A stretch of DNA of 37,498 nucleotides. It comes from Chrysochromulina tobinii (taxonomy: Eukaryota). How positions within the stretch are numbered: the stretch's first letter is position 1; every line of letters begins with the position of its first letter. The DNA lies in the NCBI GenBank assembly GCA_001275005.1, contig JWZX01003294.1, positions 1 to 37,498 of the forward strand, written 5' to 3'. The translations under genes and the position numbers were made by a program. Below, one piece after another: positions 1 to 37,421 of this stretch. The notes under the pieces were generated by a model. The model saw only the letters and a list, made by a program, of their open reading frames with translations, made no database searches and was not told the DNA's origin.

Positions 1-577
1 CCGGATGTTAATGACTCGCAGCGCACAGATGCAGCGCCTAAAGACTGGCCATGGCCATGGGCATCGAAACTTCACCGTGCGGTGCGAGTCCTATGAAGCC
101 ACGCCCATGGCAGTGTTTGAGCATGCGGACTACGTCGAGGGATGGATGGGACTTACAGAGGTCAACGTTCAGATTCTTCGCTTCCTTTCAAGCCATAGCG
201 ACCGCCTGCGCCCTCATTTTGAGGCCCTGACTCTGCACGACCACGACGAAGGTAATGATCAAATTTCGCTTGCATTATTGAAGCCTTTTGCTACGTGGCA
301 CGAGGTGGTTGCCGCAACGCCCTTGGAATGCGCGCGCTGCCACCATGCCATGAAGTCGGGAATCCTGAGGCCGTCCGAATGGGTCAACTGTGGACGCGCG
401 ACGATGAAGATAACCATTTTGGGATTTCGAATCCGGAGCGAGCAAGTGAAGGCAGGCCTAGCTGCGCTCGGCAGTGCAGGTGACCCGACCTCGAAGCTCA
501 GCAAAGCTGTGGAGGAGTCGAGAGCAGCCACAAGACAAATTAAGCACAGCTGGCCGAATGATTGCAACGAATCGTAG
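1..577 (+). CDS. 5'-truncated putative class I SAM-dependent methyltransferase-like protein (inverted duplicate of 1346-2191)
   Basis: The translation is near-identical to the C-terminal ~190 aa of the 1346-2191 (-) product. The frame is open from the window edge to TAG at 575-577. Confidence 0.65.
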   Translation, partial: RMLMTRSAQMQRLKTGHGHGHRNFTVRCESYEATPMAVFEHADYVEGWMGLTEVNVQILRFLSSHSDRLRPHFEALTLHDHDEGNDQISLALLKPFATWHEVVAATPLECARCHHAMKSGILRPSEWVNCGRATMKITILGFRIRSEQVKAGLAALGSAGDPTSKLSKAVEESRAATRQIKHSWPNDCNES

Positions 578-1345
578 GAGAACGGGCAGTCTTGGGGATG
601 CGCTCAACACTCCTTCGTTCAACACTACTTCGTTCAACACAGCTCCTAAAGCTCCGTTCCGCAGTCTCTACTTCGAAGTATACCAAGCTGCGCGGAAGCG
701 GCGTGGTGTCCCTCAACCGCGAACCGGAGCGGCTGCTGAGAGATAGTGAGGAGTACTGGAGGACTGAGAAGCTACCGGCAAAGGTACTGTGCCGCGTTTA
801 TACGGGTGGTGACACAGCCGTCGCGTGTTTATGTGTGAATAGGGGTGACGGTGGTTTTCCTTTGTATAATGACCTATCGTTCGGTTCGTTTCGTGGCGGT
901 TGGGGTACGGGGAACGGGGCGTTTTCGTCCCGGGTCCGGCGCGACACGTTTTGGCATGACGTTTTAGACCGGACCTAGGGGGACCTTCTCACTACTCAGG
1001 TGATTACCTCATAGGCTTTGAACACGCTGTGGGGCGCATTTTTTGACCTAGGGGCATGCCTAGGGGGACCTTCTCACGCGTCACCGCTACTCACAACTCA
1101 GGTCGAATTCGGGCGCGTATCGGTCGTGGGCGCCAGTATCACGTCATAATTACTGGAGTATCTCGTCGCGTTTCGCCTCGTTAGGCTTTGGCCTTTCCCT
1201 TTCTCGCCTTTTTGATTTTGTGCGAACACTGTGCTTAGCCGCCCGATGGTGATCCCCATGCTCTGGAGAATGTGTGGGTATGTTGTTTGCATGTTGGGCG
1301 TCAAAAACAAAAATCACCATACCCACCCTTGAGCAAGATTCTCAC

Positions 1346-2191
1346 CTACAATTCGTTGCAATCATTCGGCCAGCTGTGCTGAATTCGTCGGTTGGCTGCT
1401 CTCGACTCCTCCACAGCTTTGCTGAGCTTCGAGGTCGGGTCACCTGCACTGCCGAGCGCAGCTAGGCCTGCCTTCACTTGCTCGCTCCGGATTCGAAATC
1501 CCAAAATGTGTACCTTCATCGTCGCGCGTCCACAGTTGACCCATTCGGACGGCCTCAGGATTCCCGACTTCATGGCATGGTGGCAGCGCGCGCATTCCAA
1601 GGGCGTTGCGGCAACCATCTCGTGCCACGTAGCAAAAGGCTTCAATAATGCAAGCGAAATTTGATCATTACCTTCGTCGTGGTCGTGCAGAATCAGGGCC
1701 TCAAAATGAGGGCGCAGGCGGTCGCTATGGCTTGAAAGGAAGCGAAGAATCTGAACGTTGACCTCTGTAAGTCCCATGAACCCCTCGACATAGTCCGCAT
1801 GCTCAAACACTGCCATGGGCGTGGCTTCATAGGACTCGCACCGCACGGTGAAGTTTCGATGCCCATGGCCATGGCCAGTCTTTAGGCGCTGCATCTGTGC
1901 GCTGCGAGTCATTAACGTCGGGCAGTACGAGCGATCAATCTCAATCGCTACAGCGTGCCTTGCGACGCGGGCATAACACTCCATTCCATCTCCATTCCGC
2001 GTGCCGATCTCGATGATAGACTGACCTGCAAATCTGCGTGCCAATGCAGTGTGCACAGATTGTGGGCTCCGTAACGGCACAATATCCACAGGTGTCACTT
2101 CCTGTTCGCAATCCAACTGCTGCTCGACTGCAAGCGTAGGCGAGCTCAGAAGCGCGAGGTGCAGCAGAACTCGCCTCGAAGCTCGGCCCAT
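1346..2191 (-). CDS. Secreted/membrane putative class I SAM-dependent methyltransferase-like protein
   Basis: ATG 2191 gives a signal-peptide-like start (MGRASRRVLLHLALLSSPTLA). Motif I-like IIEIGTRNGDG is followed by AVAIEID, with an acidic residue ending the second strand. Homologous to 26962-27645. Confidence 0.7.
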   Translation of the reverse strand: MGRASRRVLLHLALLSSPTLAVEQQLDCEQEVTPVDIVPLRSPQSVHTALARRFAGQSIIEIGTRNGDGMECYARVARHAVAIEIDRSYCPTLMTRSAQMQRLKTGHGHGHRNFTVRCESYEATPMAVFEHADYVEGFMGLTEVNVQILRFLSSHSDRLRPHFEALILHDHDEGNDQISLALLKPFATWHEMVAATPLECARCHHAMKSGILRPSEWVNCGRATMKVHILGFRIRSEQVKAGLAALGSAGDPTSKLSKAVEESRAANRRIQHSWPNDCNEL

Positions 2192-2473
2192 GGAGCAGCC
2201 TAGCCGCCACTGAGCGAGCTGACTCGAGTCCTTACCCCAGAAAGCTTGCGGACCATCGCGCATGAATGCGAACGTGAGGACATCGTTGAAATTCCGCTTC
2301 GGTTCGCACGAGATTGTGTGTGCACCCCGAAAAAGGCAGGTCGGCACCTGGTCTGGGTTCCACACGCATCAGTGAGCGGTACGCCATATCCGGATACGCA
2401 GCGTATTTTGTTTTTGCGTATTTTCAGCATTTTGCGTTTTGCGTATTTTTGACCCGCATTACGTGACACACAA

Positions 2474-3300
2474 GTGATACATTCAAGATACATTCCGGAT
2501 ACATATGGGATACATATCGAGATACATGTACACATGAAACACATCAAGATACGTATCTCGAGCCCTACTTGCGGCCGCGCTTGGATACCCCCAAACCCTA
2601 CCCAAACCCCTGAGATTACGTGTCCCGCATGTATCCCCCATGTATCCCGCATGTATTCCGCATGTATCCCGCATGTATCTTGATAACCTCTGATGATACA
2701 TGTATCTCGCATGTATCTCGCATGTATCCCGCATGATGTCTCCTTCATATCAGATACATCTAGTCTCTCTGGATGCATTTGAGATACATGTATCTCATCA
2801 TGTATTTCGGATGTATCCCACATGTATCTTGATCACCCTTGCAGATACATGTATCTCGCATGTATCCCGCATGTATCCTGCATCTCAGATACGTACCGCT
2901 CTGGATACATTCAAGAGGTAAGTATTTCAGACAATGTATCCCTAATGTATCCCATATGTATCCCGCATATGTATCTTGAACATGTATCGTGATGTATCGT
3001 GAAGAAGAGTCCAAGATACACGTATCTTGATGTATCCTGACATGTATCCAGTGTGACACCGTCAAGGAAGCGTCCAAGATACATGTATCGTGATGTATCT
3101 GATGTGTATCCCAAAATGTATCTTGGACTCGTTTGGGATACGTGTGAAATACATGCAAAATGTCAAGATACATGTATTCTCTTGAAATGTAACAGGGCTT
3201 GTCAGATACATTTGAGATACATCAGGATACACTCGAGATACATGTATCCTTCAGGATACATGCAGGATACATCAGGATACATCAGGATACGTATCTGATA
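2474..3300. repeat. AT-richer satellite-like array of GATAC/GTATC and GATACATGTATC palindromic motifs
   Basis: Dozens of gatacat/catgtatc units in both orientations, including near-tandem cgcatgtatcc/cgcatgtatct 11-mers. Confidence 0.9.
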
Positions 3301-3358
3301 GGAAACTGTACCCAAACACGATAGGAAACTGACCCGCACCGCAAAGTGGGCTGGCCAG

Positions 3359-3537
3359 TACGCAATACGCAATACGCAATACGCAATGGGGTCAAAGTGG
3401 GCTGGCTAGTGCGCAATACGCAATACGCAATACGCAATACGCAAAGAGGGTCAAAGTGGGCTGGATGTGAAAATTGCAGTCATACGCAATACGCAATACG
3501 CAGTACGTAATGCGGGTCAAAAATACGCAATACGCAA
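3359..3537 (+). repeat. (TACGCAA)n heptamer arrays separated by gggtcaaagtgggctgg units
   Basis: Read directly in the sequence. These are subterminal repeats of the TIR element. Confidence 0.9.
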
Positions 3538-3977
3538 AATGCTGACAAGACGCAAAAAAAAAATACGCTGCGTATGGCGTACCTCTCACTGATGGGACCA
3601 CCCCCCTATAAAGGGGTGGCCACGACGTCCAAGGTCCAACACCCGCCACAACAGCAAAAGAAACGAAACCTCCCAACCCACCCCCCGTCGGGAAAGCGGG
3701 GTTCGAGGTGTGGGTTCTCTCTAAGGGGGGTCTAGTTAGTGTGCACCACTGCAGACAGTTCTGTACCGTAGTACACGCCCATCGCGTTCGGGGATGTACG
3801 TCAGACCCTAGGGTGCGTGCGTGTATAGGTATGGTCCGGTCACCAAAAGCAAACTTTCCTAAGGTGGCATGCGACATGGAACATGGAACGGCATCTGGTG
3901 AGGGGTGGGGCCTTATAAACATGAAAAATAGTAGACCACTCCCCCTTGGGTCAAGAGATAGCATGCCTGGGGACAGG

Positions 3978-4100
3978 GGAGACGCTCTTGCCACGTCATC
4001 ATCTAATAATAATCTAATAAGGGGACGAGGCTCCACAGGCGAGGCGCGCCGTCTCGTTTTGCGGCCGCTGGCACGCGGCACAGCTCCAGCATGTTCATGT
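3978..4100 (+). repeat. ~115-bp dispersed repeat, copy 1 (inverted relative to 7533-7642)
   Basis: ggagacgctcttgccacgtcatcatctaataa...cagctccagcatgttcatgt matches the reverse complement of 7533-7642 with a few substitutions and small indels. Confidence 0.9.
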
Positions 4101-7532: not shown

Positions 7533-7642
7533 ACATGAACATGCTGGAGCTGCCGCGCGCCAGCGGCCGCAAAACAAGACGGCGCGCCTCGCCTGTGGAG
7601 CCTCGACCCCTTATTAGATGATGACGTGGCAAGAGCGTCTCC
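7533..7642 (-). repeat. ~110-bp dispersed repeat, copy 2
   Basis: Reverse complement of 3978-4100. Confidence 0.9.
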
Positions 7643-7724: not shown

Positions 7725-10179
7725 TCACTCGGCGCGCGCCTTGGCCGCCGCTTCCCTCGCGCTGACCGCGGCAGCCCTCGCCGCAGCCGCTGCCTGTCGC
7801 GCAAGCTCCGCAGCCGTTGCGGGAGCATGAGCAGCAGCAGCAGCGGCGGCGGGCGCGGCAGCGGTGGCAGAGGAGACAGCGCCCGCGCCCACCTCGTGCG
7901 GCTCGATGTTCGTCTCGTGCGCGACTGCCATCCGCTCGATGGCGACAGCGAGGGGCAACGAGCCCAGGTCGCCTCCTCGCCTCGAAGTGAGCGCGAGGGA
8001 GCGACCCTCGACCTCTGCGGCGCCGACGACCGCGTACATGGGGATCTTCTCCTGGTTTGAAATCTTGATCTGCTTGCCGAGCGAGCGGCCGCCAATGTCG
8101 ACCTCAGCGCGCACGCCCGCGCGCTTGCACGCCTTCACCACCTCCTCGCAATAGGGCTTGAAGTCATCCGACACGGGCAGCAGGCGCAGCTGCGTGGGTG
8201 CGAGCCAGAATGGGAAGTCACCCGCGGTCGACTCGGTCAGTACTCCGAAGAAGCGCTCCATCGAGCCAAAGATCGCGCGGTGCACCATGATCGGTTGCTC
8301 CACCTTGCCCGAGGAGGCGATGTACTCGAGTCCGAAACGGTCGGGTAGGTTGAAGTCGCACTGGATCGTCGAGCACTGCCACATCCGCCCGATGGCGTCG
8401 CGAATCTTGACGTCGATCTTCGGGCCGTAAAAGGCGCCGCCGCCCTCGTCCACGTCGTACGTCCAACCCTTCCGGTCGAGGGCGTCCGTGAGCGCGGTCG
8501 TGGCCTTGTCCCAGATGGCATCGGAGCCGACGCTCTTCTCCGGGCGTGTGGAGAGCATCACCTGTGGGGAAGAGGAGGGCGCCGTGGTGAGCACTTGCAT
8601 GCCGAGGACGAGCGCGCCGAGCAGCAGGGCGCGTCGAGAGCATCACCTTGTAGTCGGTGAACCCAAATTTGGAAAGGATGGTCTCCGTCAGGTCGAGCAC
8701 TCCGAGGATCTCGTCAGAGAGTTGCTCGGGCAGGCAGAAGATGTGAGCGTCGTCCTGCGTGAAGCCGCGCACGCGGAAGAGGCCGTGCAGAGTGCCCGAG
8801 CGCTCGTACCGGTAGACAGTCCCGAGCTCGGCCCAGCGCAAGGGGAGGTCGCGGTACGAGCGCGGGCTGTCCTTGTAGACGAGCACGTGGAAGGGGCAGT
8901 TCATCGGCCGAATCTGGTACTCCGCGCCCTCGACCTCCATCTGGCGGGCGCCGTAGTGGGCGCCCGGGACGACGCAGGGCGAGCACGCACGGGGTCAGAA
9001 GGTCAGAAGAGAGGGGGGGGCGGCGGGCTCGTGGGCATATAGATATAGAAGGGGCCTGCACGGCGGCCAGTTAGGCGGCCAGAATGGTGGCCCGCAGCGG
9101 GCTGCACCGCGGGCTGCAGCAGAGGGTACGCTCACCTGGTCGAACATTCCGTCCTTGTAGAAGTCGAAGTGGCCGCTCGTCTTCCACAGGTCCAGCGACG
9201 CCATGTGGGGCGTGTACAGCAGCTCGTACGGCTTGGGGCCGTTGATGTGCACATCCTTCCAGAATGTCTCGATGGCGTTGCGCATGCGCGCACCCTTGGG
9301 GTGCCAAAAGACGAGGCCGCCGCCCGCGTCCTGCTGAATCGAGAAGAGGTCGAGCTGCTTGCCCAGCATGCGGTGGTCACGCCGCTTCGCCTCCGCCTGC
9401 AGCCGCGCGTACTCTGCGAGCTGCTCCTTATTCTCCCAGGCCGATCCGTAGATGCGCTGCAGCATGGGTTTGGTCTCGTCGCCGCGCCAGTACGCGCCCG
9501 CGATCGAGTCGAGAGAGATGGCGTCCGCGGGGAGCATGCCCGTATGCGCGACGTGCGGGCCCGCGCACAGATCCCACCACTTCGTCTTTGAGTTCTCGTC
9601 GCCGATGTGGTAGATCGTGATCAGTGCCGTCGGGTCGCGAGCCACGATCGAGTCGAGAATCTCAAGCTTGTATGGCTCGTTGATTTCCAAGATGCGCCGG
9701 CGTGCCTCGTCGGCGGAGACCTCCTCGCGCACGAGCGGCAGCTTCATCGAGATGATCTTGTCCATCTCCTTCTTGATGCGCCGCAGGTCGGTCTCGAGGA
9801 AGGCCTCCTTGTAGTCGAAGTCGTAGTAGAAGCCATTCTCGATCCACGGGCCGATGGTCACCTTGGCATCCTTGAAGAGGCGCTGCACGGCCATGGCCAT
9901 CACGTGCGCGCTCGTGTGCCGGATGCGCAGCAGCGTGTCGCTCTCCTCATTGCTCGGCAGGACTATGGGCTTCACCGCCTCGATAAGCGCGGGCACGTCA
10001 GCGGTGGCCTCAGGCGTCTCCACGGCTTGCATGATGACAGAGCTCGCATGAAGGCGGCGCGCGACGATCTGCCGCGCGGCGGCGAGCCGCGATGCAGCGG
10101 GAGCCCCGCTTGGCTGATACGCCGCCACCAGCGAGGCAATTGACACGGTGCGCAAAGCTCGAGCCCATCGTGCCACCAT
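7725..10179 (-). CDS. thrS: Threonyl-tRNA synthetase, organellar (likely plastid) type; exons 10179-9136, 8940-8647, 8561-7725
   Basis: Motifs [65 protein letters not shown] and [15 protein letters not shown] introns 9135-8941 and 8646-8562 join three ORFs in frame. There is an N-terminal targeting-like extension and no TGS domain. Confidence 0.97.
8562..8646 (-). other. Spliceosomal intron (85 nt) with a 5' copy of the downstream exon and a shared 3' module
   Basis: Starts gtgatgctctcgacgcgcc, while the next exon starts gtgatgctctccacacgcc. Ends gcatgcaagtgctcaccacggcgc...ttccccacag. Confidence 0.9.
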
Positions 10180-10659
10180 TTCGAGCCGGTCGTCGAGCGC
10201 AGGTCCTCGCGGCTTGAGATCAAGTCTCGTGAGTTTTCTGTGAATTCACGTCAATTGCCGAAACGTGGCTCGTCACATTCACGACACTGCTTGTAAATTC
10301 ACATTCACGTCAATTGCCACCACGGCAAGACGCGCAACCACCGTGAACGACCGTCACCGTGTCAACGGTCCCTTCCACGGGTCCATCCCTTCGTTCTTGG
10401 CACAGCGCACGAGCGCAGCAAAGCCGCACTATCACCGCCTCCTGCACTCCTAGGCGCCCATCGACTGCCCTTCGGCCTCTGCGTTGGCCAGCATGCGCGC
10501 ACAGCGGTGGCGGGTTCACCCGACAGCTACATGTAACTCACTTACATCTTCTCCTCGACTCTTCTCCATGTGGATGATGGAGTCAAGTCATGATGTCGTG
10601 ACTGCGTGCATGATGACGTGCATGCTATCTCGCAGACGATGCATCACATCAAGGGGGAA

Positions 10660-16213: not shown

Positions 16214-17785
16214 ATGACCACGATGCGCGAGCGCGTCGGCTGGGTGGTCGACAGATGCCCCGGATTCGGGGCATCTGTCGACCACAAGTCGAACGTTCGC
16301 GTGTGCTCGTGCTACTTGCCTGCGTCCTCGCAAATTACACCGCGCCCTGCACCGTGGCGCCATGACCAAGACGCGCTTCTGGCCTCATCAATCTGGTCGC
16401 GGCAGCTTGGATGTGAAGCATCTCGATGGTACCGCGTGCCTTGGACCATGCGCGGGTTGGGAACCACGATTATCGCACATTTGAACTCGCTGCTCCCAGT
16501 GTGGATAGTACCCAAGGATGCAGATGGGCGCGGCCCGGCCGTAATGCCCGCCGTTTGGACAGAAGAATCGAGCGATAGGTTGTTGTGGGCAGCCGCTGAC
16601 ACTTCGCTTGAATGCCGCACCTGGTACGGATGCTACTGGCAGCATCTGCACACCGTGTGTGCAAATTCGAATTCGAGTGCGAACTCGACTAGAGCGTACG
16701 CCCTGTGGACCAATCTGAAACTTCCGGTGCGTTTGGTGCACAACGACTCCCGCACCACCACAATCAACGAGAGAGTTCAGTACTGGCGCGAGCGATATCG
16801 GAGCACCTTTGAGGATCGATGGGGCAGCCTAGTACTCGGAGCTGCGCTCCTCGACGTGTGGTGGCGTCCGTCGGAGGCTCTACGCTCATTGGTCGATGCG
16901 CGGCTGAAAGAGATCTTTCGTGGCGGCGCTGCTGAGTGGTCGTGTGTCGCAGTGCACGTGCGCCGCGGCGACGCGTGCATTACGCCATGGAGACGCTGCC
17001 CGCCCCTCGAGGAATATCTGGTACCCGCGCGCCATCTCGCGCGACGGTACGGCCTACGGCGACTGTTCATCGCCACCGACGAGCAGTCCGTTGTGGACGA
17101 ACTCGTCGCCACCGGTAAGGGGACTTTCCCCCTTTCCACCGGTAAGGGGACTCCCCCCTTTTCCACCGGTCAGGCTCGCGGGCATCGTGCCGGAGCCATG
17201 GCGCCAGAGCCATGGGTCGAAGTGCTCCACCAGCGCATAGATCGCTCATGGCTGGCAGTGGAGAGGAATAACAGCAACGTGAGCAGGTTCGACCAATATG
17301 ACTGGGTGGAGCACAAGCTGCAGCGGCGCCAACAGGACCAGCAGCAAGGAGCGCCGTCCCGGGCAAACTTCACTCCAATTGTCGACGTGATCACGGACAT
17401 CGAGGCGGCTAGCCGCTGCACGGCCCTTGTAGGGGACCTGACCGCCGGCATCACTGAGCTCATCATGCTGCGCATGGTGGCACGTCTCGGTCAAGCGCCA
17501 CCTCTCTACTCTCTCGGGGGCAAGGGATTTTGCCCGCTGGGCGGAACGCCGTTTCGTTGTGCACCGCCGGATCATTTGATCTCTCCAAGCGAGGTCAGAG
17601 CGCGCGAGGGGGGGAAGAGCGCGCTCGCAGCCCAGACCGAGGCGAGTAGGTGGCAAGCATGCCGGGACAGTGGTACTTGCCAACGCTTGCCTCGAGGAAC
17701 TGAAGCAGTGGAAGATCATCACGCAGATGAGGTCAAGCAGTGGCAAGCAGCGTGTGAGGCAAGCGGTGCTCGTGAGGTGGGATGA
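16214..17785 (+). CDS. Fucosyltransferase-like glycosyltransferase (GT23/FUT8-NodZ-like); 5' end uncertain, possible intron 17115-17207
   Basis: GDP-fucose-binding motif I AVHVRRGDAC, motif II LFIATDEQSVV and motif III DIEAASRCTALVG. Confidence 0.78.
   Translation: MTTMRERVGWVVDRCPGFGASVDHKSNVRVCSCYLPASSQITPRPAPWRHDQDALLASSIWSRQLGCEASRWYRVPWTMRGLGTTIIAHLNSLLPVWIVPKDADGRGPAVMPAVWTEESSDRLLWAAADTSLECRTWYGCYWQHLHTVCANSNSSANSTRAYALWTNLKLPVRLVHNDSRTTTINERVQYWRERYRSTFEDRWGSLVLGAALLDVWWRPSEALRSLVDARLKEIFRGGAAEWSCVAVHVRRGDACITPWRRCPPLEEYLVPARHLARRYGLRRLFIATDEQSVVDELVATGKGTFPLSTGKGTPPFSTGQARGHRAGAMAPEPWVEVLHQRIDRSWLAVERNNSNVSRFDQYDWVEHKLQRRQQDQQQGAPSRANFTPIVDVITDIEAASRCTALVGDLTAGITELIMLRMVARLGQAPPLYSLGGKGFCPLGGTPFRCAPPDHLISPSEVRAREGGKSALAAQTEASRWQACRDSGTCQRLPRGTEAVEDHHADEVKQWQAACEASGAREVG
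16244..16285. repeat. Perfect 19-bp inverted repeat with 4-nt loop
   Basis: gtggtcgacagatgccccg-gatt-cggggcatctgtcgaccac. Confidence 0.95.
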
Positions 17786-18269: not shown

Positions 18270-19899
18270 ATGTCACCTGACGAGGGATCCGCTTCCGCCG
18301 AGGGCTCCATTCCCGCTACCGCGGGTGCGTGGGTATACACATGCAATGTGGGCGTCGAGGCGGAGGCGGCCGGGCGCGCTGTCCCCAAATCATTCCAGGC
18401 GCTCCGTCGCGACCTTGCGGTGTTGCCGTGGCTCCTTGCGACCGAGGCCGACCTCGTGATCGCGCCGCCGCCACTCCCAGACTTCATCGCTGCCCTGCAG
18501 GCCGCTGGGGTGAGCGGCATGTGCCAGTTTTGTGCGAGCTTGGAGGAGCTGCCGTCCTCTGTGCCGATCACAGGCCACCGTCCGTACGGCGTCGTGGGCC
18601 CTCACCTGCGCCGCTCGCTCGTCGGGCGCTATCGTGAGCACGGCGTCGTATGCCACTCGGTGGAGGCAGTGCGTGCAGCCGTGGCGGAGCAGCCCGACGA
18701 GCGCGCGGTACTCAAGGCCGAGTTTTCCTCCTCTGGTCTGGGCGTGCGCGTGTGCGAAGGCGCCCAGGACGGCGCGACCCCGATTGCAGCGGAGGGCTCT
18801 GAGCTGGCGCGCTGGGCGGCGAACTGCATCGCCCGCGACGGCGCGTTGCTCGTCGAGCCGTGGCTAGACATAGTCGCCGAGTTCACAGCGGAGTATTGGG
18901 AAGGGTCCTGGTGCGGTGCGCCTTTCCCAACATGACATGACTTGACTTGACTTGACTTGACTGGTGCGGTGCGCCTTTCCCAACATGACGCTGGCTGATG
19001 AGCCGTTACAATGAGCATCGGCGTTAATGGGGACACTGAGGGCCTCTGATGGCCTCTGATGGCCTCTGTTGGCCTCTGAGGGCCTCTGATGACCTCTCTT
19101 CGCGTCCGATCGCCCGCGTCATGTTGGGCGTCTGCTCTCCTCAGGTGCGGCATCTCGATGCCCATCGTCGAGCACCGCCGATGGATGGGCCAATGGCTAG
19201 GCTCACCCGCAGAGCGATACTCGTCGGAGGTGGTCCGTTTCGTCTTTGAGGAGCGACGAATCGAAGCAGCACTCGCGCCCCTCGACGTGCCAGGCACGTG
19301 CGGGCCACTGATGGCCTCTGATGGCCACGGATTGCCAGGCACATGCGGGCTCGAGACGAACCACAGCGATGACCTGCCGCATGTCATCGAGGCACATGCG
19401 GGCTCGTCACCTCGACTCGTGGTTCGTCACATCAACAAGTTTCGTCACACCGACTCGTGGTTCGTCACAGGTACGTGCGGGGTGCCCACATGCGGGCTCG
19501 ACGTCGCTGTGGTTCGAGATCACACGACTGGCGCGCTGCAGGTCAAGATCCTCGAGCTCTTGATTGCCCTTGATTGCCCTTGATTGCCCTTGATTGCCCT
19601 TAATTGCCCTTGATCTTGGCGCGCTGCAGGTCAAGATCCTCGAGCTCAATGCGCGCATGCAAGTGCTCACCACGGCGCGTCATCCCCTTTCCCCACAGGT
19701 CAAGATCCTCGAGCTCAATGCGCGCACGACGTTCTCGCACTACGCGCTGGCCGCCCAGCGCCGCGTGCCGCGCGCGGTGCGCTTTGAGGTGTTGCGTGTC
19801 TCCGAGGCGGCCGAACGCCCCAACCTCGTGTACTTGACCGACCCCCAGGTGGCGAGCATGTTCGTGGCGGTCGTTGAGGTGGCCGCCGCGAGGGTGTGA
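18270..19899 (+). CDS. ATP-grasp-fold protein; exons ~18270-18910, 19145-19293, 19471-19541, 19699-19899
   Basis: AVLKAEFSSSGLG, LLVEPWLD, GLDVAVVR and KILELNARTT (the E-x-N-x-R ATP-grasp signature). Removing introns 18911-19144 (GT), 19294-19470 (GC) and 19542-19698 (GT) gives one continuous frame. The start is uncertain. Confidence 0.75.
19542..19698 (+). other. Stacked introns 19542-19629 and 19630-19698, each starting with a copy of the downstream exon
   Basis: caggtcaagatcctcgagctc occurs three times. The first unit holds a (ttgattgccc)n array and the second holds the shared 3' module. Confidence 0.85.
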
Positions 19900-31009: not shown

Positions 31010-32532
31010 TCAGAGGCCCTCTCTCGACCACTCCGAGTAGTGCTCCGGGTAGCGCTCGAAGTGCTCTCGCAGCGCTGCCCTCTGCTGCTCGCCATTCCAG
31101 TCCAGCTTGTCGTACACGTCTGTGAACATGTGGACCGCCGCCGGGCGTGGCGCCTGGCTCGCGACGTTGAGCGATGCGATGGCGTCGCGCCGCGCCTGCG
31201 TCCGTAGGTAGTCCTCCATCTGGGTGTTCCACCAGCCGCGTGATGCGAGGTAGCGCCCGAAGCGAATGATGGGCGATCTCGCCTCCCAGAACGCGCGCTC
31301 CGAGTCCCACCCCTGATGAGGGAGGCAATCAGGCGGCCATCAGCGGCCATCAGCGGGGTCCCCACACCTCGACCGGAGCGCCGCGTGTGCGGTACTGATC
31401 AGGGAGGCAATCAGGCGGCCATCAGCGGCCATCAGCGGGGTCCCCACACCTCGATCGGAGCGTCGCGTGTGCGGTACTTGGTGTCGTCATCGCTCGTTGA
31501 GTGCGCCCCGATTCGGTACGTCATCGCCTCAATGAGGCACGGGCGCCCCTCGTTGAGACAAATGTCGCGCGCCTTTTTCGTCGCGGCCACAACGGCGAGG
31601 AGATCGTTGCCGTCGATCCGGATCGTCGGCAGACCAAAGGCAGGGCCACGTGGCGCGATGCCGTCCGACCGGTACTGGTCCTTGGCGTTGGTCGAGATGG
31701 CATAGCCGTTGTTGCGGCAGAAGAAGATCATGGGTGAGCCGTGCACGGCGGCAATGTTGAGCGCGGAGGGGATGTCGCCATGCGAGGCCGTCCCTTCGCC
31801 AAAATAAGCAATCGAGATGCGCGGCTGCCGCGTGCGCTTCATGTGCAGAGCCACACCCGTCGCGTGCGGCGCCTGGGTCGCGAGCGTCGACTTGACGTAC
31901 AGGATGCAGCGCTCCTTGGAGCCGATGTGCAGCGGCAGCTGGCGGCCATGCGCCGGGTCGTGCGCGGTCGCGCACAGCTGGTTGGCCACCTCCTGGAACG
32001 TGAAGCCCCTCCAGAAGAAGACCCCTAGCTCGCGGTACTGGGGCAGAACCCAGTCATCGGGCTGAAGCGCCGCGGCCGAGCCGACCGTGGCACCCTCCTC
32101 GCCGCGGCCCGTCAGGTAAAAGGAGATGCGCCCCTGCCGCTGCGCGTCGAGGAAGATCTTGTCAAACTCGTTCACGCGCAGCATCGTGTGCATGCACGCG
32201 AGCGCGTGCTCACGAGAGAGCGCCGGCACGTGCGCCTCCGCGCCCGGAACCACCCTGCCGAGGTCGTCCATGATGCGGAAGCACGGCATGGCCGCCGGCA
32301 CGTTGTCGACGTGCGGGTACCAGAAGTCCATGGACGTCGTGTACGACGATTTGGCGCCCACGAAGAGCGTGCTCTCACCCGTCGGCCGCGTCGGCTGCCG
32401 CAGGCGCGCGATCTCCTCGCGCAGGCGCGCGTTTTCAAGCTCAAGGTCGGAGAGGCGCGCGGTACAGAGGCTTCGGCGTGGCGCACGTGCGAGCTGCGGC
32501 AGCCGGCGAGGGAGCGATCGAAGGCTTCGCAT
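31010..32532 (-). CDS. BCKDHA: Branched-chain 2-oxoacid dehydrogenase E1 alpha subunit, mitochondrial; intron region 31313-31449
   Basis: AQRQGRISFY, QYRELG, YFGEGTASHGD, RNNGYAIST and YRIGAHSTSDD. Arg-rich mitochondrial-type leader MRSLRSLPRR. The 3' exon GWDSERAFWE..FTDVYD joins in frame. Confidence 0.95.
31313..31449 (-). other. Two near-identical 55-nt introns flanking a 27-nt copy of the upstream exon end
   Basis: gtgtggggaccccgctgatggccgctgatggccgcctgattgcctccct[g/c]atcag occurs at 31395-31449 and 31313-31367. The spacer 31368-31394 encodes YRTRGAPVE, against the genuine YRTRDAPIE. Confidence 0.9.
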
Positions 32533-35558: not shown

Positions 35559-37421
35559 TCACGAGAACATAAACTTCAGGTCCTCGAGCCGCGTCGCCCG
35601 CTCCTTGTAGTCGCTCGGGTCGCGCGCGTCGAGCGCCCCCTTGACGAGGGCCGTCTTCTTCGCGTGCAGCTGCAGGATGCGGTCCTCGACGGTGTGCTGC
35701 ATGAGGAAGCGCTTGACCCGCACCGCGTGCGATTGGCCGATCCGGTGCACACGATCGATTGCCTGCTCTTCGACCCCCGGATTCCACCAAGGATCGAGCA
35801 GGTAGACAGTCTGGGCGGCCACGAGGTTGAGGCCGACGCCGCCCGCGCGCAGCGAGAGCAGGAGCACGCGCACGCTCGGCTCGCTCGCGAAGCGCTCGAG
35901 CGCCTTGGCGCGCGCAGGCTGCGCCATTGAGCCGTCGAGCCGCTCGTACCTGGGGCCATCATCAGCGGCAATCGGGCCATCAAGTCATCAGCGGCAATCG
36001 GCGGGGATGAGACTGGCACTCAGAGCATTCGCATCAGAGCACTCGCAGAACATCGCACTCAGATCAGCGCTGCTGAGCGTACTCGATGCCTTCGTGCTCG
36101 AGAGGCCTCTGCACGAGGTCGAGCATCGCCGTCCACTGCGAGATGATCACCGCCTTGCGCACGCTCGGCACGACGCTCGTGCTCGGCACCGCGACCACAG
36201 GCGGGCCGAGCGCCGTGCTGAGCGTCTCCGTCAGGTCGGCCATCAGAGCCGTCAGCTTCGTCGACGGGCGCCACGCCTTGTCAAGGTCGACCGCGAACCG
36301 CGACTTGCGGGGGAGAGTGAGCAAATCGGCCCGATGGACCGTCTCGCGGCACACTGGGCACGGCGCAGCACCCATGGCGTTCGCCAAGCAGCCGCTGATG
36401 CACTCGCGGCAGAAGACATGGGCGCAGTTGGTGATGACGGCGTCCTCGGGCGCGTCCAGGCAGATGACGCAGCACGACTGCACGACCTCGTGGTCCGAAG
36501 CGCCCAGATTCGAATCTGGCGCCGCGAGATTCGAATCTGGTGCGGCGAGATTCGAATCTGGTGCGGCCGTCTCGCTCGGCGGCAGCGGCAGCGGCGCACC
36601 CGCGCCCGCCGCGCCCGCACCCGCGCCTACGCCGAGCGAGGATGAGCGGCTGAGCTCACGCAGCGCATTATGAATGAACGCGGGGCCGCTGTGAACGGGG
36701 CCGCTGGCGCCGCTGCCGCTGCCAGCTTGCTGCTGCTGCTGCTGCTGCTGCTCGGCGGTGCGCTGCTGCCAACGTTTGAGCAGCACATCTCCGATGGCAT
36801 TGAGGTCCTTGGAACAATCCGCGCGCGAGAGCACCAGAAATGGGTGGTCGCATGCCTGGCGCATCTGGAGCAGCATGGCGAGCACCGAGGCATGCGTCAT
36901 CGTGGGTAATTACAGGGCTCATCAGAGGGGCAGTACCTGGAGCAGCATGGCGAGCACCGAGGCATGCGTCATCGTGGGTAATTACAGGGCTCCTCAGGGC
37001 TCATCAGGGCTCCTAAGGGCTCATCAGAGGGGCAGTACCTGGAGCAGCATGGCGAGCACCGAGGCGTAGTTGTTGAGAACCTTGCCCTCAGCCACGAACG
37101 CGTCGAAGCGCACCTTTGACTGCGTGCGCAGCGCCTCATAGAAGTCGAGCTCCTCGGCTGTGAAAAGGAGCTTCTCGATGACCGTCTGGCGCGGCGGCAG
37201 CATGACGATCGGCTGGCCGTCTGCGCCGCGCGTCGCCTTCGTACGCCGAAGCAGCAAGGGGCGGAGGGCGCCATGCAGTCGCGTGAGCGCGCGCGCGTCG
37301 CGCTGCTCCAGCAGAGGACGCGAGATGACGCGCCGCCAGCAGCTGTACTCATCCAGGGGCGCGAGTCGCAGAAAGTGGAGAAGGGAGAAGAGCTCATCGA
37401 GATGGTTTTGGATGGGCGTGC
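35559..37421 (-). CDS. RAD5/HLTF-like SNF2 helicase with RING finger, 3' part (continues beyond the window); exons 37421-37039, 36864-36083, 35949-35559
   Basis: GTPIQN, LLLRRTK, LLQMRQACDHP, RING (CVICLD..CAHVFCREC..CPVCR), IISQWTAML, RLDGSM, SLRAGGVGLNL and DPWWNPGVEEQAIDRVHRIGQ. Introns 37038-36865 and 36082-35950 restore the frame. Confidence 0.93.
36865..37038 (-). other. Stacked introns 36937-37038 and 36865-36936, each ending with a 27-nt copy of the upstream exon end
   Basis: gcctcggtgctcgccatgctgctccag occurs three times. Both units start gtactgcccctctgatgagccc. Confidence 0.88.

What the first reader, a model, noticed from the sequence alone, without database searches (positions are those of the whole stretch)
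19655..19698. Identical 24-nt 3' splice module shared by introns of two unrelated genes on opposite strands
Seen: gcatgcaagtgctcaccacggcgc followed shortly by ttccccacag ends both the ATP-grasp intron (19655-19698, +) and thrS intron 2 (8602-8562, -), each time in sense orientation. In both, the 5' part of the intron begins as a copy of the downstream exon. At 19655 the module joins that copy through a shared gca microhomology. Inference: a ~45-nt mobile cassette supplies a branch-point-like ctcac, a pyrimidine tract and an AG, which turns an exon duplication into a spliceable intron (a minimal 'half-introner').
Basis: partly seen in the sequence, partly recalled or inferred. Interest (0 to 1): 0.85.

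Follow-up and report, generated by a model that had tools for sequence, protein, structure and literature searches.

The report
Self-copying intron ends create new introns
In the alga Chrysochromulina tobinii a ~45-base piece carrying an intron's 3' splice site ends many unrelated introns, each beginning with a ~30-base copy of the next exon, and this piece is likely copied from existing introns, often in the same gene, into new sites, so that introns would seed new introns.

Summary
Confirmed and much larger than two copies. Both introns are spliced in RNA contigs. A metagenome scan gave 152 exact and 349 near copies in 0.7 Mb. Of 310 copies, 215 run into a pyrimidine tract and AG (6 of 314 on the antisense side), and 189 of these are followed by GT/GC. 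In 151 of 194, the downstream exon start is duplicated just upstream (median 29 nt, range 13-47). One strain has a clean 81-nt insertion that another lacks. Neighbouring copies share variants, and some carry 8-19 nt of a nearby parent's flank, joined through 2-7 nt of microhomology. So the duplication is likely a target duplication made in the same event, and the template is an existing intron rather than one master. No inverted repeats, hairpin, small RNA or transposase were found. Best reading: microhomology-primed template-switch copying; the enzyme and the RNA-versus-DNA template are untested. It works like an introner but fails the published both-ends definition. The scan earlier noted a similar footprint on other DNA of this genome (e1-2577349).

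The parts
19542..19698 (+).
   Evidence: RNA joint 19538/19696 skipping 157 nt, GT..AG at cut +3, in X19; homologues colinear
19542..19629 (+). Upstream block: 18-nt copy of the downstream exon start, about 5.6 copies of a 10-mer, then a 13-nt copy (19617-19629) of the upstream exon end; belongs to the second (10-mer) family
   Evidence: Sequence, tandem repeat 19559-19614
19630..19657 (+). Target duplication: perfect copy of exon 19699-19726; its last 3 nt (GCA) are shared with the core
19655..19678 (+). 24-nt core; predicted branch adenosine at 19669
   Evidence: Exact match; branch role inferred from motif and from a 22-29 nt distance to AG in most copies
19679..19698 (+). Variable C/T-rich spacer and CCCCACAG acceptor
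19699..19726 (+). Original target: start of the downstream exon
8562..8646 (-). Whole thrS intron 2 (85 nt, phase 0, GT..AG)
   Evidence: RNA joint 8550/8636 skipping 85 nt (cut +11) in X15 and X17, absent from DNA run X13; product identical to P0002
8627..8646 (-). Target duplication: 20-nt copy of exon 8561-8542, 18 of 20 identical
8603..8626 (-). 24-nt filler between duplicate and core; source not found
   Evidence: best shared suffix with any other fetched copy was 5 nt
8579..8602 (-). 24-nt core; predicted branch adenosine at 8588
8562..8578 (-). Variable C/T-rich spacer and CCCCACAG acceptor

Best explanation
A ~45-nt intron-end cassette (24-nt core, C/T tract, CCCCACAG) closes many unrelated introns of Chrysochromulina tobinii, each opening with a 13-47-nt copy of the next exon, and it likely spreads by being copied from existing introns into new sites through microhomology-primed template switching. 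Shown: both window introns are removed precisely; copies occur in unrelated genes; one insertion differs between strains; neighbours share variants and flank. Inferred steps: (1) a staggered nick or break opens about 30 nt of an exon. (2) A 3' end at a GT/GC site anneals to a parent intron's AG|GT junction and copies backwards through the tract and the core, so it builds the antisense strand. The template is more likely the parent's unspliced transcript than its DNA, but this is untested. (3) Synthesis usually stops 0-12 nt past the core and rejoins the target through 2-7 nt of microhomology. (4) Fill-in duplicates the target. The duplicate's GT becomes the donor, the cassette gives the predicted branch point and the acceptor, and the mRNA is unchanged. 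(5) Each daughter ends in AG|GT again, so it can be a parent and would favour donor-like targets. Selection removes the rest, apart from in-frame or otherwise harmless insertions. Recombination between the two duplicates would give the tandem arrays and precise loss.
For: Family and polarity: 215 of 310 copies run into a tract and AG, against 6 of 314 on the antisense side; GT 167 and GC 22 follow. Duplication: 151 of 194 above the 99th null percentile. Mismatch by codon position is 3.8, 4.3 and 7.4% in 70 loci, with 41 of 49 third-position changes synonymous, as expected from a perfect copy followed by neutral decay. One event: L066 has 81 extra nt (perfect duplicate, filler, core, spacer) that L009 lacks at 1.7% divergence; filler and spacer equal those of a same-strand copy 524 nt away. 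Local parents: same-locus pairs share spacers (28 against a permutation mean of 7.0) and core variants (45 against 9.7), and 0 of 500 permutations reached either. Carried flank of 19, 13, 12 and 8 nt, with 5, 7, 5 and 2 nt of microhomology read from the alignments. Microhomology of 2 nt or more in 17 of 22 filler-free joins, against about 3.5 expected; 4 of the 17 are tandem units. Direction: the 5' 12-mer occurs without the rest once in 232, the 3' 12-mer 29 times in 249. Selection filter: 14 of 20 non-spliceable inserts are 3n (p=9e-4), spliceable ones 37/39/35. Staggered breaks give microhomology-joined tandem duplications with templated inserts in mouse cells (PMC5730883, passages).
Against: No enzyme was identified and no new event was observed. 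Random template switching should erode the 5' end, yet 205 of 240 core hits keep the first 10 nt, which needs an extra cause (splicing selection or a cis signal). Core divergence and duplicate divergence do not correlate (rho -0.05, p=0.52). The templated inserts in the passages read of PMC5730883 come from the break's own flanks, not from kilobases away. For RNA versus DNA the data are mixed: opposite-strand neighbours share no close spacer (0 of 20, against 27 of 187 same-strand pairs under 4 kb) but share core variants in 5 of 11 (background 672 of 4522). At least one antisense copy exists (L042). The single polymorphism could be precise loss rather than gain. Loci were selected by an exact core match, and no whole genome was available.
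Confidence: 0.6

Rival explanations
1. The cassette is a tiny non-autonomous HUH (Replitron-type) element copied by rolling-circle transposition. The acceptor end is the precise start and the GCATGC end is the imprecise stop.
For: Replitron-1 inserts orientation-specifically at a dinucleotide, carries a variable stretch of parental flank at one end and makes variable target duplications (PMC10288648 section 9); all three are seen here. The 5' boundary is sharp. A Replitron-like protein is listed for C. tobinii.
Against: That protein is a single-copy incomplete fragment. The cassette ends show no direct terminal repeat by inspection, and no stable hairpin (z -0.62 to +1.69). The spacer next to the precise end is the most variable part. 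Replitrons in Chlamydomonas are under-represented in coding sequence and introns (PMC9977147 passages). Local parent bias and microhomology at the fuzzy join are not described for them in what I read.
Confidence: 0.15
2. A SINE-like element: a dedicated short RNA from one or a few master loci is inserted by target-primed reverse transcription using a LINE enzyme.
For: Variable target duplications, a precise 3' join, 5' truncation and 5' microhomology are recalled hallmarks of this route. Long duplications are reported for some LINEs (PMC9977147).
Against: Spacers are almost never identical (13 of 18,480 pairs). Some daughters carry sequence from the exon duplicate of a nearby intron, which a master RNA could not supply. 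There is no poly-A or simple-repeat tail and no Rfam match above noise.
Confidence: 0.12
3. Two steps without mobility of the cassette as such: tandem duplications make weak introns, and the 24-mer is a splicing signal that is later spread among them by gene conversion and kept by selection.
For: Duplication-born introns with other ends are common (208 of 324 lack the core). Core positions vary unevenly. TGCATG is sense-biased in 99 introns without the core (20 against 6). There is no age correlation. Local similarity also fits conversion.
Against: The L066 allele has duplicate and cassette together against an empty site. Complete cores sit in non-spliceable in-frame inserts, where a splice signal is useless. 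Gene conversion needs flanking homology, which unrelated exons lack.
Confidence: 0.1
4. Assembly artefact: a repeat or adaptor mis-joined with duplicated flanks.
For: Contigs break at the cassette (table 8).
Against: RNA contigs skip exactly these segments. Copies occur in 33 assemblies (counted by hand from the contig prefixes). Duplicates show codon-structured divergence.
Confidence: 0.01

Closest known systems
Introner-like elements of Symbiodinium and Polarella glacialis classes 4/5 and 6/8/10 (bioRxiv 10.1101/2020.10.14.339549, parts 1-2 of 4 read; PMC9860276 Fig. 2B legend)
   Same: [quoted passage not shown]
   Different: Those have fixed 4- or 8-nt duplications (with inverted repeats in Symbiodinium), and the element forms nearly the whole intron. 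Here the duplication is 13-47 nt, variable, and about a third of the intron; there are no inverted repeats; parental flank is carried along.
Chrysochromulina sp. introners of marine MAGs (PMC9860276 Fig. 2C legend, supplementary table 5 rows)
   Same: Same genus name; intron creation with one co-opted splice site.
   Different: The example family has a 4-bp duplication, carries the 5' site and co-opts the 3' site. In the stored (cut) supplement 'tobin' occurs only in the genome list and the core motifs are absent.
Replitron-1 of Chlamydomonas reinhardtii (PMC10288648, section 9 read)
   Same: Orientation-specific dinucleotide target, one fuzzy end from the parent's flank, variable duplication.
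   Different: 0.9-3.6 kb with direct terminal repeats and a hairpin; avoids genes; not reported to make introns in the passages read.
Intron gain by staggered-break repair in Daphnia pulex (PMC4202315, passages) and by tandem genomic duplication (PMC3443670, passages)
   Same: The new intron is flanked by a direct repeat of exon sequence, and repeated secondary events occur inside young introns.
   Different: Daphnia repeats are 4-12 bp and the inserted sequence mostly has no known source. Pure duplication takes both splice sites from one AGGT. Here the insert has an identifiable source, another intron's 3' end.

Membership tests
Introner (Gozashti 2022 definition) | Four or more introns in non-paralogous genes share sequence | tested here: met
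   194 copies ending in tract and YAG remain after merging those with similar downstream exons
Introner (Gozashti 2022 definition) | Similarity reaches within about 10 intronic nt of BOTH splice boundaries | tested here: not met
   The core starts a median 37 nt (5-95%: 24-53) after the donor; that part is a locus-specific exon copy. Definition.
Introner (Gozashti 2022 definition) | The insertion is spliced out without changing the mRNA | tested here: met
   Both window introns; other loci not tested in RNA
Introner (Gozashti 2022 definition) | Recent gain at new positions (presence/absence) | tested here: inconclusive
   One clean empty/full pair (L009/L066) among 12 pairs aligned; direction not polarised
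MITE-type introner | Terminal inverted repeats | tested here: not met
   Ends are not complementary by inspection; folds no better than shuffles
MITE-type introner | Short target duplication of fixed length | tested here: not met
   13-47 nt in 141 copies; 13-46 nt among 35 perfect duplicates
Replitron (non-autonomous) | Orientation-specific insertion at a dinucleotide | tested here: met
   189 of 215 are followed by GT/GC; selection for splicing confounds this
Replitron (non-autonomous) | Fuzzy end from the parental flank and variable duplication | tested here: met
Replitron (non-autonomous) | Short direct terminal repeats and a terminal hairpin | tested here: not met
   No shared terminal repeat by inspection of aligned copies; fold z-scores -0.62 to +1.69
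Replitron (non-autonomous) | Autonomous Rep/HUH partner with matching termini | not testable with these tools
   No genome held; a crude motif scan of 580 long ORFs in the loci gave 2 motif hits, neither convincing
SINE / TPRT retroposon | Variable duplication, precise 3' end, 5' truncation | tested here: met
   (features recalled from general knowledge)
SINE / TPRT retroposon | Poly-A or simple-repeat tail; head derived from a small RNA | tested here: not met
   Sequence; Rfam scan of 19500-19800 gave only two matches at E 6.5-7.5
SINE / TPRT retroposon | One or few master templates and a partner LINE | tested here: inconclusive
   Spacers identical in only 13 of 18,480 pairs, and local parents exist; partner not searchable
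Tandem genomic duplication at AG|GT | Both splice sites come from the duplicated exon sequence | tested here: not met
   The acceptor comes from the cassette in the main class; it is met by the upstream block 19542-19629 and by a minority of copies

The most novel reading that the evidence does not exclude
Introns in this alga reproduce without any transposon. A host polymerase copies the 3' end of an intron from the unspliced transcript into a nicked exon, and the ~30-nt target duplication supplies the donor. Each daughter recreates the AG|GT handle that primes the next round. This would be a self-sustaining route of intron birth that may account for thousands of introns, runs in at least two cassette families, and is invisible to introner searches that need similarity at both ends.
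Probability: 0.33. Interest if true: 0.92.

Novelty: new variant of a known kind. Interest (0 to 1): 0.78.

Why it matters
The source of the sequence in newly gained introns is mostly unknown (PMC4202315, passages). Here the parent intron, the daughter intron and an empty allele can be read side by side. That makes intron birth testable in a cultured alga with a 59-Mb genome (PMC4580454, passages). The largest introner survey required similarity at both intron ends, so half-cassettes like this would have been missed, possibly in other lineages too. Flank density suggests about 3,000-8,000 copies (inference), against roughly 17,000 introns in the published annotation.

Tried and rejected
The whole genome is not held, so all census numbers come from 127 metagenome loci chosen by an exact match. 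Foldback origin of the T/CTT before the core: no covariation between core position 7 and position -2, rejected. Hairpin as a mobility signal: eight folds no better than shuffles. Small RNA: Rfam gave noise only. Viral source: 1 stretch in viral contigs, itself with the intron-end anatomy, not pursued. Prokaryotic genomes: 0 exact matches. Partner enzyme: a crude motif scan found nothing convincing. Age clock: core and duplicate divergence are uncorrelated. Microhomology to the parent's CCCCACAG in the upstream exon: only 4 of 26 CAG-ending exons end CCACAG, inconclusive. Strand calls from a codon model were too noisy to use (34 of 200 terminal copies called antisense). My first duplicate test had a null inflated by orthologous copies and was replaced. 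The first codon test used a mis-framed training gene and was repeated with the same result. Searches had off-by-one exon starts, fixed. Of 12 pairwise alignments, L063/L065 was uninformative. One search did not list the + strand intron's joint (low cover, table cut); one search did. Literature: 10 searches; none listed a description of this element, and 'Chrysochromulina tobin' + 'spliceosomal intron' + 'duplicat' gave 0 papers. Subscription papers are not covered, the Gozashti supplement was cut when stored, and the bioRxiv supplement of the dinoflagellate paper could not be seen. Earlier-findings look-ups: one search gave an unrelated CRISPR note, nothing.

Full report
Observation. The 24-mer is exact at 19655-19678 (+) and 8602-8579 (-); no other match with up to 3 mismatches exists in the window, and 100 shuffles gave none. 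Each copy is followed by a different C/T-rich spacer and TTCCCCACAG. thrS intron 2 spans 8646-8562. RNA contigs X15 and X17 skip these 85 nt, DNA run X13 does not, and the spliced product is identical to database protein P0002. The other intron spans 19542-19698. X19 skips these 157 nt at GT..AG and X18 has a matching loose end (4 runs laid). Eight homologues were aligned and are colinear across the site, two of them with a short insertion just before it. The gene's 'ATP-grasp' label is unconfirmed. The thrS cluster contains a protein named as Chrysochromulina tobinii, so the organism is this haptophyte or a very close relative.

A family. No genome was held. One metagenome scan found the exact 24-mer in 132 stretches from 5 of 64 parts of the collection, about 1,800 estimated overall. 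The 127 loci (702 kb) hold 152 exact copies. With the window there are 349 copies within 4 mismatches, while shuffled sequence gave only 3 hits, all at 6 mismatches. Prokaryotic genomes have none and viral contigs one. Density is 8.1 per 10 kb within 1 kb of a seed and 1.4 per 10 kb at 5-10 kb; the window has 0.5. Scaled to 59 Mb (PMC4580454, passages) that is about 3,000-8,000 copies, an inference from biased loci. Summed contig depth at the core is about 1,000 times single-copy depth, which the tool warns is not a copy number.

Anatomy. Of 321 distinct copies, 11 at edges were set aside. Of the 310 left, 215 run through a spacer that is at least 70% pyrimidine to the first AG; 140 of these end CCCCACAG, and 167 are followed by GT and 22 by GC. 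The antisense side passes the same test in 6 of 314. Of 203 copies ending in YAG, 194 remain after merging orthologues, and 151 have a copy of the downstream exon start upstream, above the 99th null percentile. After removing 11 tandem units, 141 give a duplicate of median 29 nt (13-47), a filler of median 6 nt, an intron of median 79 nt (quartiles 73-85) with no length bias modulo 3, 6.3% mismatch, and 35 perfect duplicates. In 70 loci with a callable frame, mismatch is 26/684, 29/675 and 49/666 at codon positions 1-3, and 41 of the 49 are synonymous. This is the 1:1:2 pattern expected if the duplicate was perfect at birth and then decayed.

One event, local parents. Among 12 aligned pairs, L066 carries 81 nt that L009 lacks at 1.7% divergence: a perfect duplicate, 6 nt of filler, the core and the spacer. 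The empty site lies in an open frame. Filler and spacer equal those of a same-strand copy 524 nt away. L020 and L044 differ by one tandem copy of a 94-nt intron unit. Copies in the same locus share near-identical spacers (28 pairs, permutation mean 7.0) and core variants (45, mean 9.7); 0 of 500 permutations reached either. Thirteen of 50 copies share 5 or more upstream bases with a neighbour, against 5.8 expected. In L057 and L041 the daughter's filler is the end of the parent's own exon duplicate (19 and 12 nt), joined through 5 nt of microhomology, which fixes the direction. Parents lie both upstream and downstream of daughters. Where there is no filler, microhomology of 2 nt or more occurs in 17 of 22 joins (4 are tandem units), against about 3.5 expected. 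The window's GCA join is of this kind.

Polarity and selection. The exact 5' 12-mer occurs without the rest once in 232; the 3' 12-mer does so 29 times in 249, ten of these in two arrays and one at an edge. Truncation is therefore 5'-sided, yet 205 of 240 core hits keep the first 10 nt within 3 mismatches. Among isolated duplicate-flanked copies that cannot be slid to GY..AG, 14 of 20 are multiples of three (p=9e-4), against 37/39/35 for spliceable ones; some of the 20 may be mis-registered introns. These inserts show that the core can arrive without an acceptor, with duplicates of similar length (17-42 nt), so that length is likely set by the mechanism rather than by splicing. An antisense copy supplies the stop codon of a family-A DNA polymerase gene in L042. 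Two thirds of copies (200 of 298) have the intron-end signature and many others sit in tandem arrays. Random insertion filtered only by selection should leave mostly neutral non-coding copies, so some targeting to genes and GT sites is inferred.

Context. A de novo search for YAG|GY sites with an upstream 16-nt duplicate found 324 distinct cases and 0 in shuffled sequence. Of these, 116 carry the core, 78 a 10-mer array (30 ending CCCTCATCAG) and 130 other ends, many of them coding repeats. The process is thus not limited to one cassette, and intron 19542-19698 combines both kinds.

Mechanism. The best fit is microhomology-primed copying of a parent's 3' end into a staggered break. Mouse cells repair such breaks into microhomology-joined duplications with templated inserts (PMC5730883, passages), though from adjacent sequence. 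An unspliced-RNA template would explain the bias to genes, strand and neighbourhood. The direct test is mixed: opposite-strand neighbours share close spacers in 0 of 20 pairs (27 of 187 for same-strand pairs under 4 kb, 1 of 31 beyond) but share core variants in 5 of 11. Against the model, the 5' boundary is sharper than random switching predicts, and core and duplicate divergence are uncorrelated. TGCATG is sense-biased in introns without the core (20 against 6 in 99), so splicing selection may hold the boundary; its identity with the animal RBFOX motif is recalled, not tested. Replitron-1 has a similar insertion signature (PMC10288648, section 9 read), but the terminal repeats and hairpin are missing, and the C. 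tobinii Replitron-like record is a single fragment (supplement rows).

Known systems. It works like dinoflagellate introners that carry the acceptor and recruit the donor from a 4- or 8-nt duplication (10.1101/2020.10.14.339549, parts 1-2 of 4). It fails the survey definition that needs similarity at both ends (PMC9860276, passages), which would explain why C. tobinii appears only in that paper's genome list in the stored part of the supplement. PMC12130899 (passages) has no mention of Chrysochromulina or haptophytes in its main text, and parts 1-2 of 5 of the review PMC11282704 describe nothing like it. Daphnia's new introns have 4-12-bp repeats and mostly unknown sources (PMC4202315, passages). 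Ten searches found no description of this element.

Verdict. A real and recently polymorphic intron-making family, new in architecture within the known class of introners. The family and copying from existing introns are well supported (about 0.9). The template-switch mechanism is likely (0.6), and the RNA-templated, transposon-free version has a probability of about 0.33.

Noticed in passing
window 18911-19144, 19294-19470 (+); 31313-31478, 35950-36080, 36865-37065 (-); 17109-17174 (+): Several other introns or intron-like tracts also show exon duplications with 5- or 10-nt repeat fillers. 19294-19470 has a GC donor, and a loose end in X16 fits its removal.
   Followed up: partly
many loci, e.g. 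L010, L016, L025, L031, L042: A second cassette family (10-mer arrays ending CCCTCATCAG) has the same exon-duplicate architecture: 78 of 324 duplicate-led candidates.
   Followed up: partly
L120:217-330, L097, L039, L007, L127: Mirror type: a fused unit carries its own donor, a short 10-mer stretch and the core, and the acceptor comes from a duplicate of the upstream exon end.
   Followed up: partly
L005:10445, L025 (minus strand), L119, L069, L024:6980: Core inserted with a duplicate but no acceptor, in multiples of three, so it would add short peptides if the sites are coding.
   Followed up: partly
L042:1228-1251 and 1904-3266: A family-A DNA polymerase gene (Pfam PF00476) packed with these introns; an antisense core with a duplicate supplies its stop codon. 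Whether it is polymerase theta or nu was not tested.
   Followed up: partly
window 1-581 and 1342-1922: 581-nt inverted repeat, 97% complementary, with 760 nt between the arms.
   Followed up: no
window 2394-3575: Segment bounded by 71-nt inverted arms with an interior rich in 7- and 11-nt repeats; looks like a non-autonomous DNA transposon.
   Followed up: no
window 3978-4080 and 7551-7642: A ~100-nt inverted pair 3.5 kb apart; one arm lies just past the thrS stop codon.
   Followed up: no
window 7725-10180: The named public thrS model in the same cluster is 1506 aa and marked partial, while the spliced gene matches a 724-aa protein; the model may be fused.
   Followed up: no
L128:3001-3060: One copy on a viral-collection contig with the usual intron-end anatomy; probably host DNA.
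   Followed up: no
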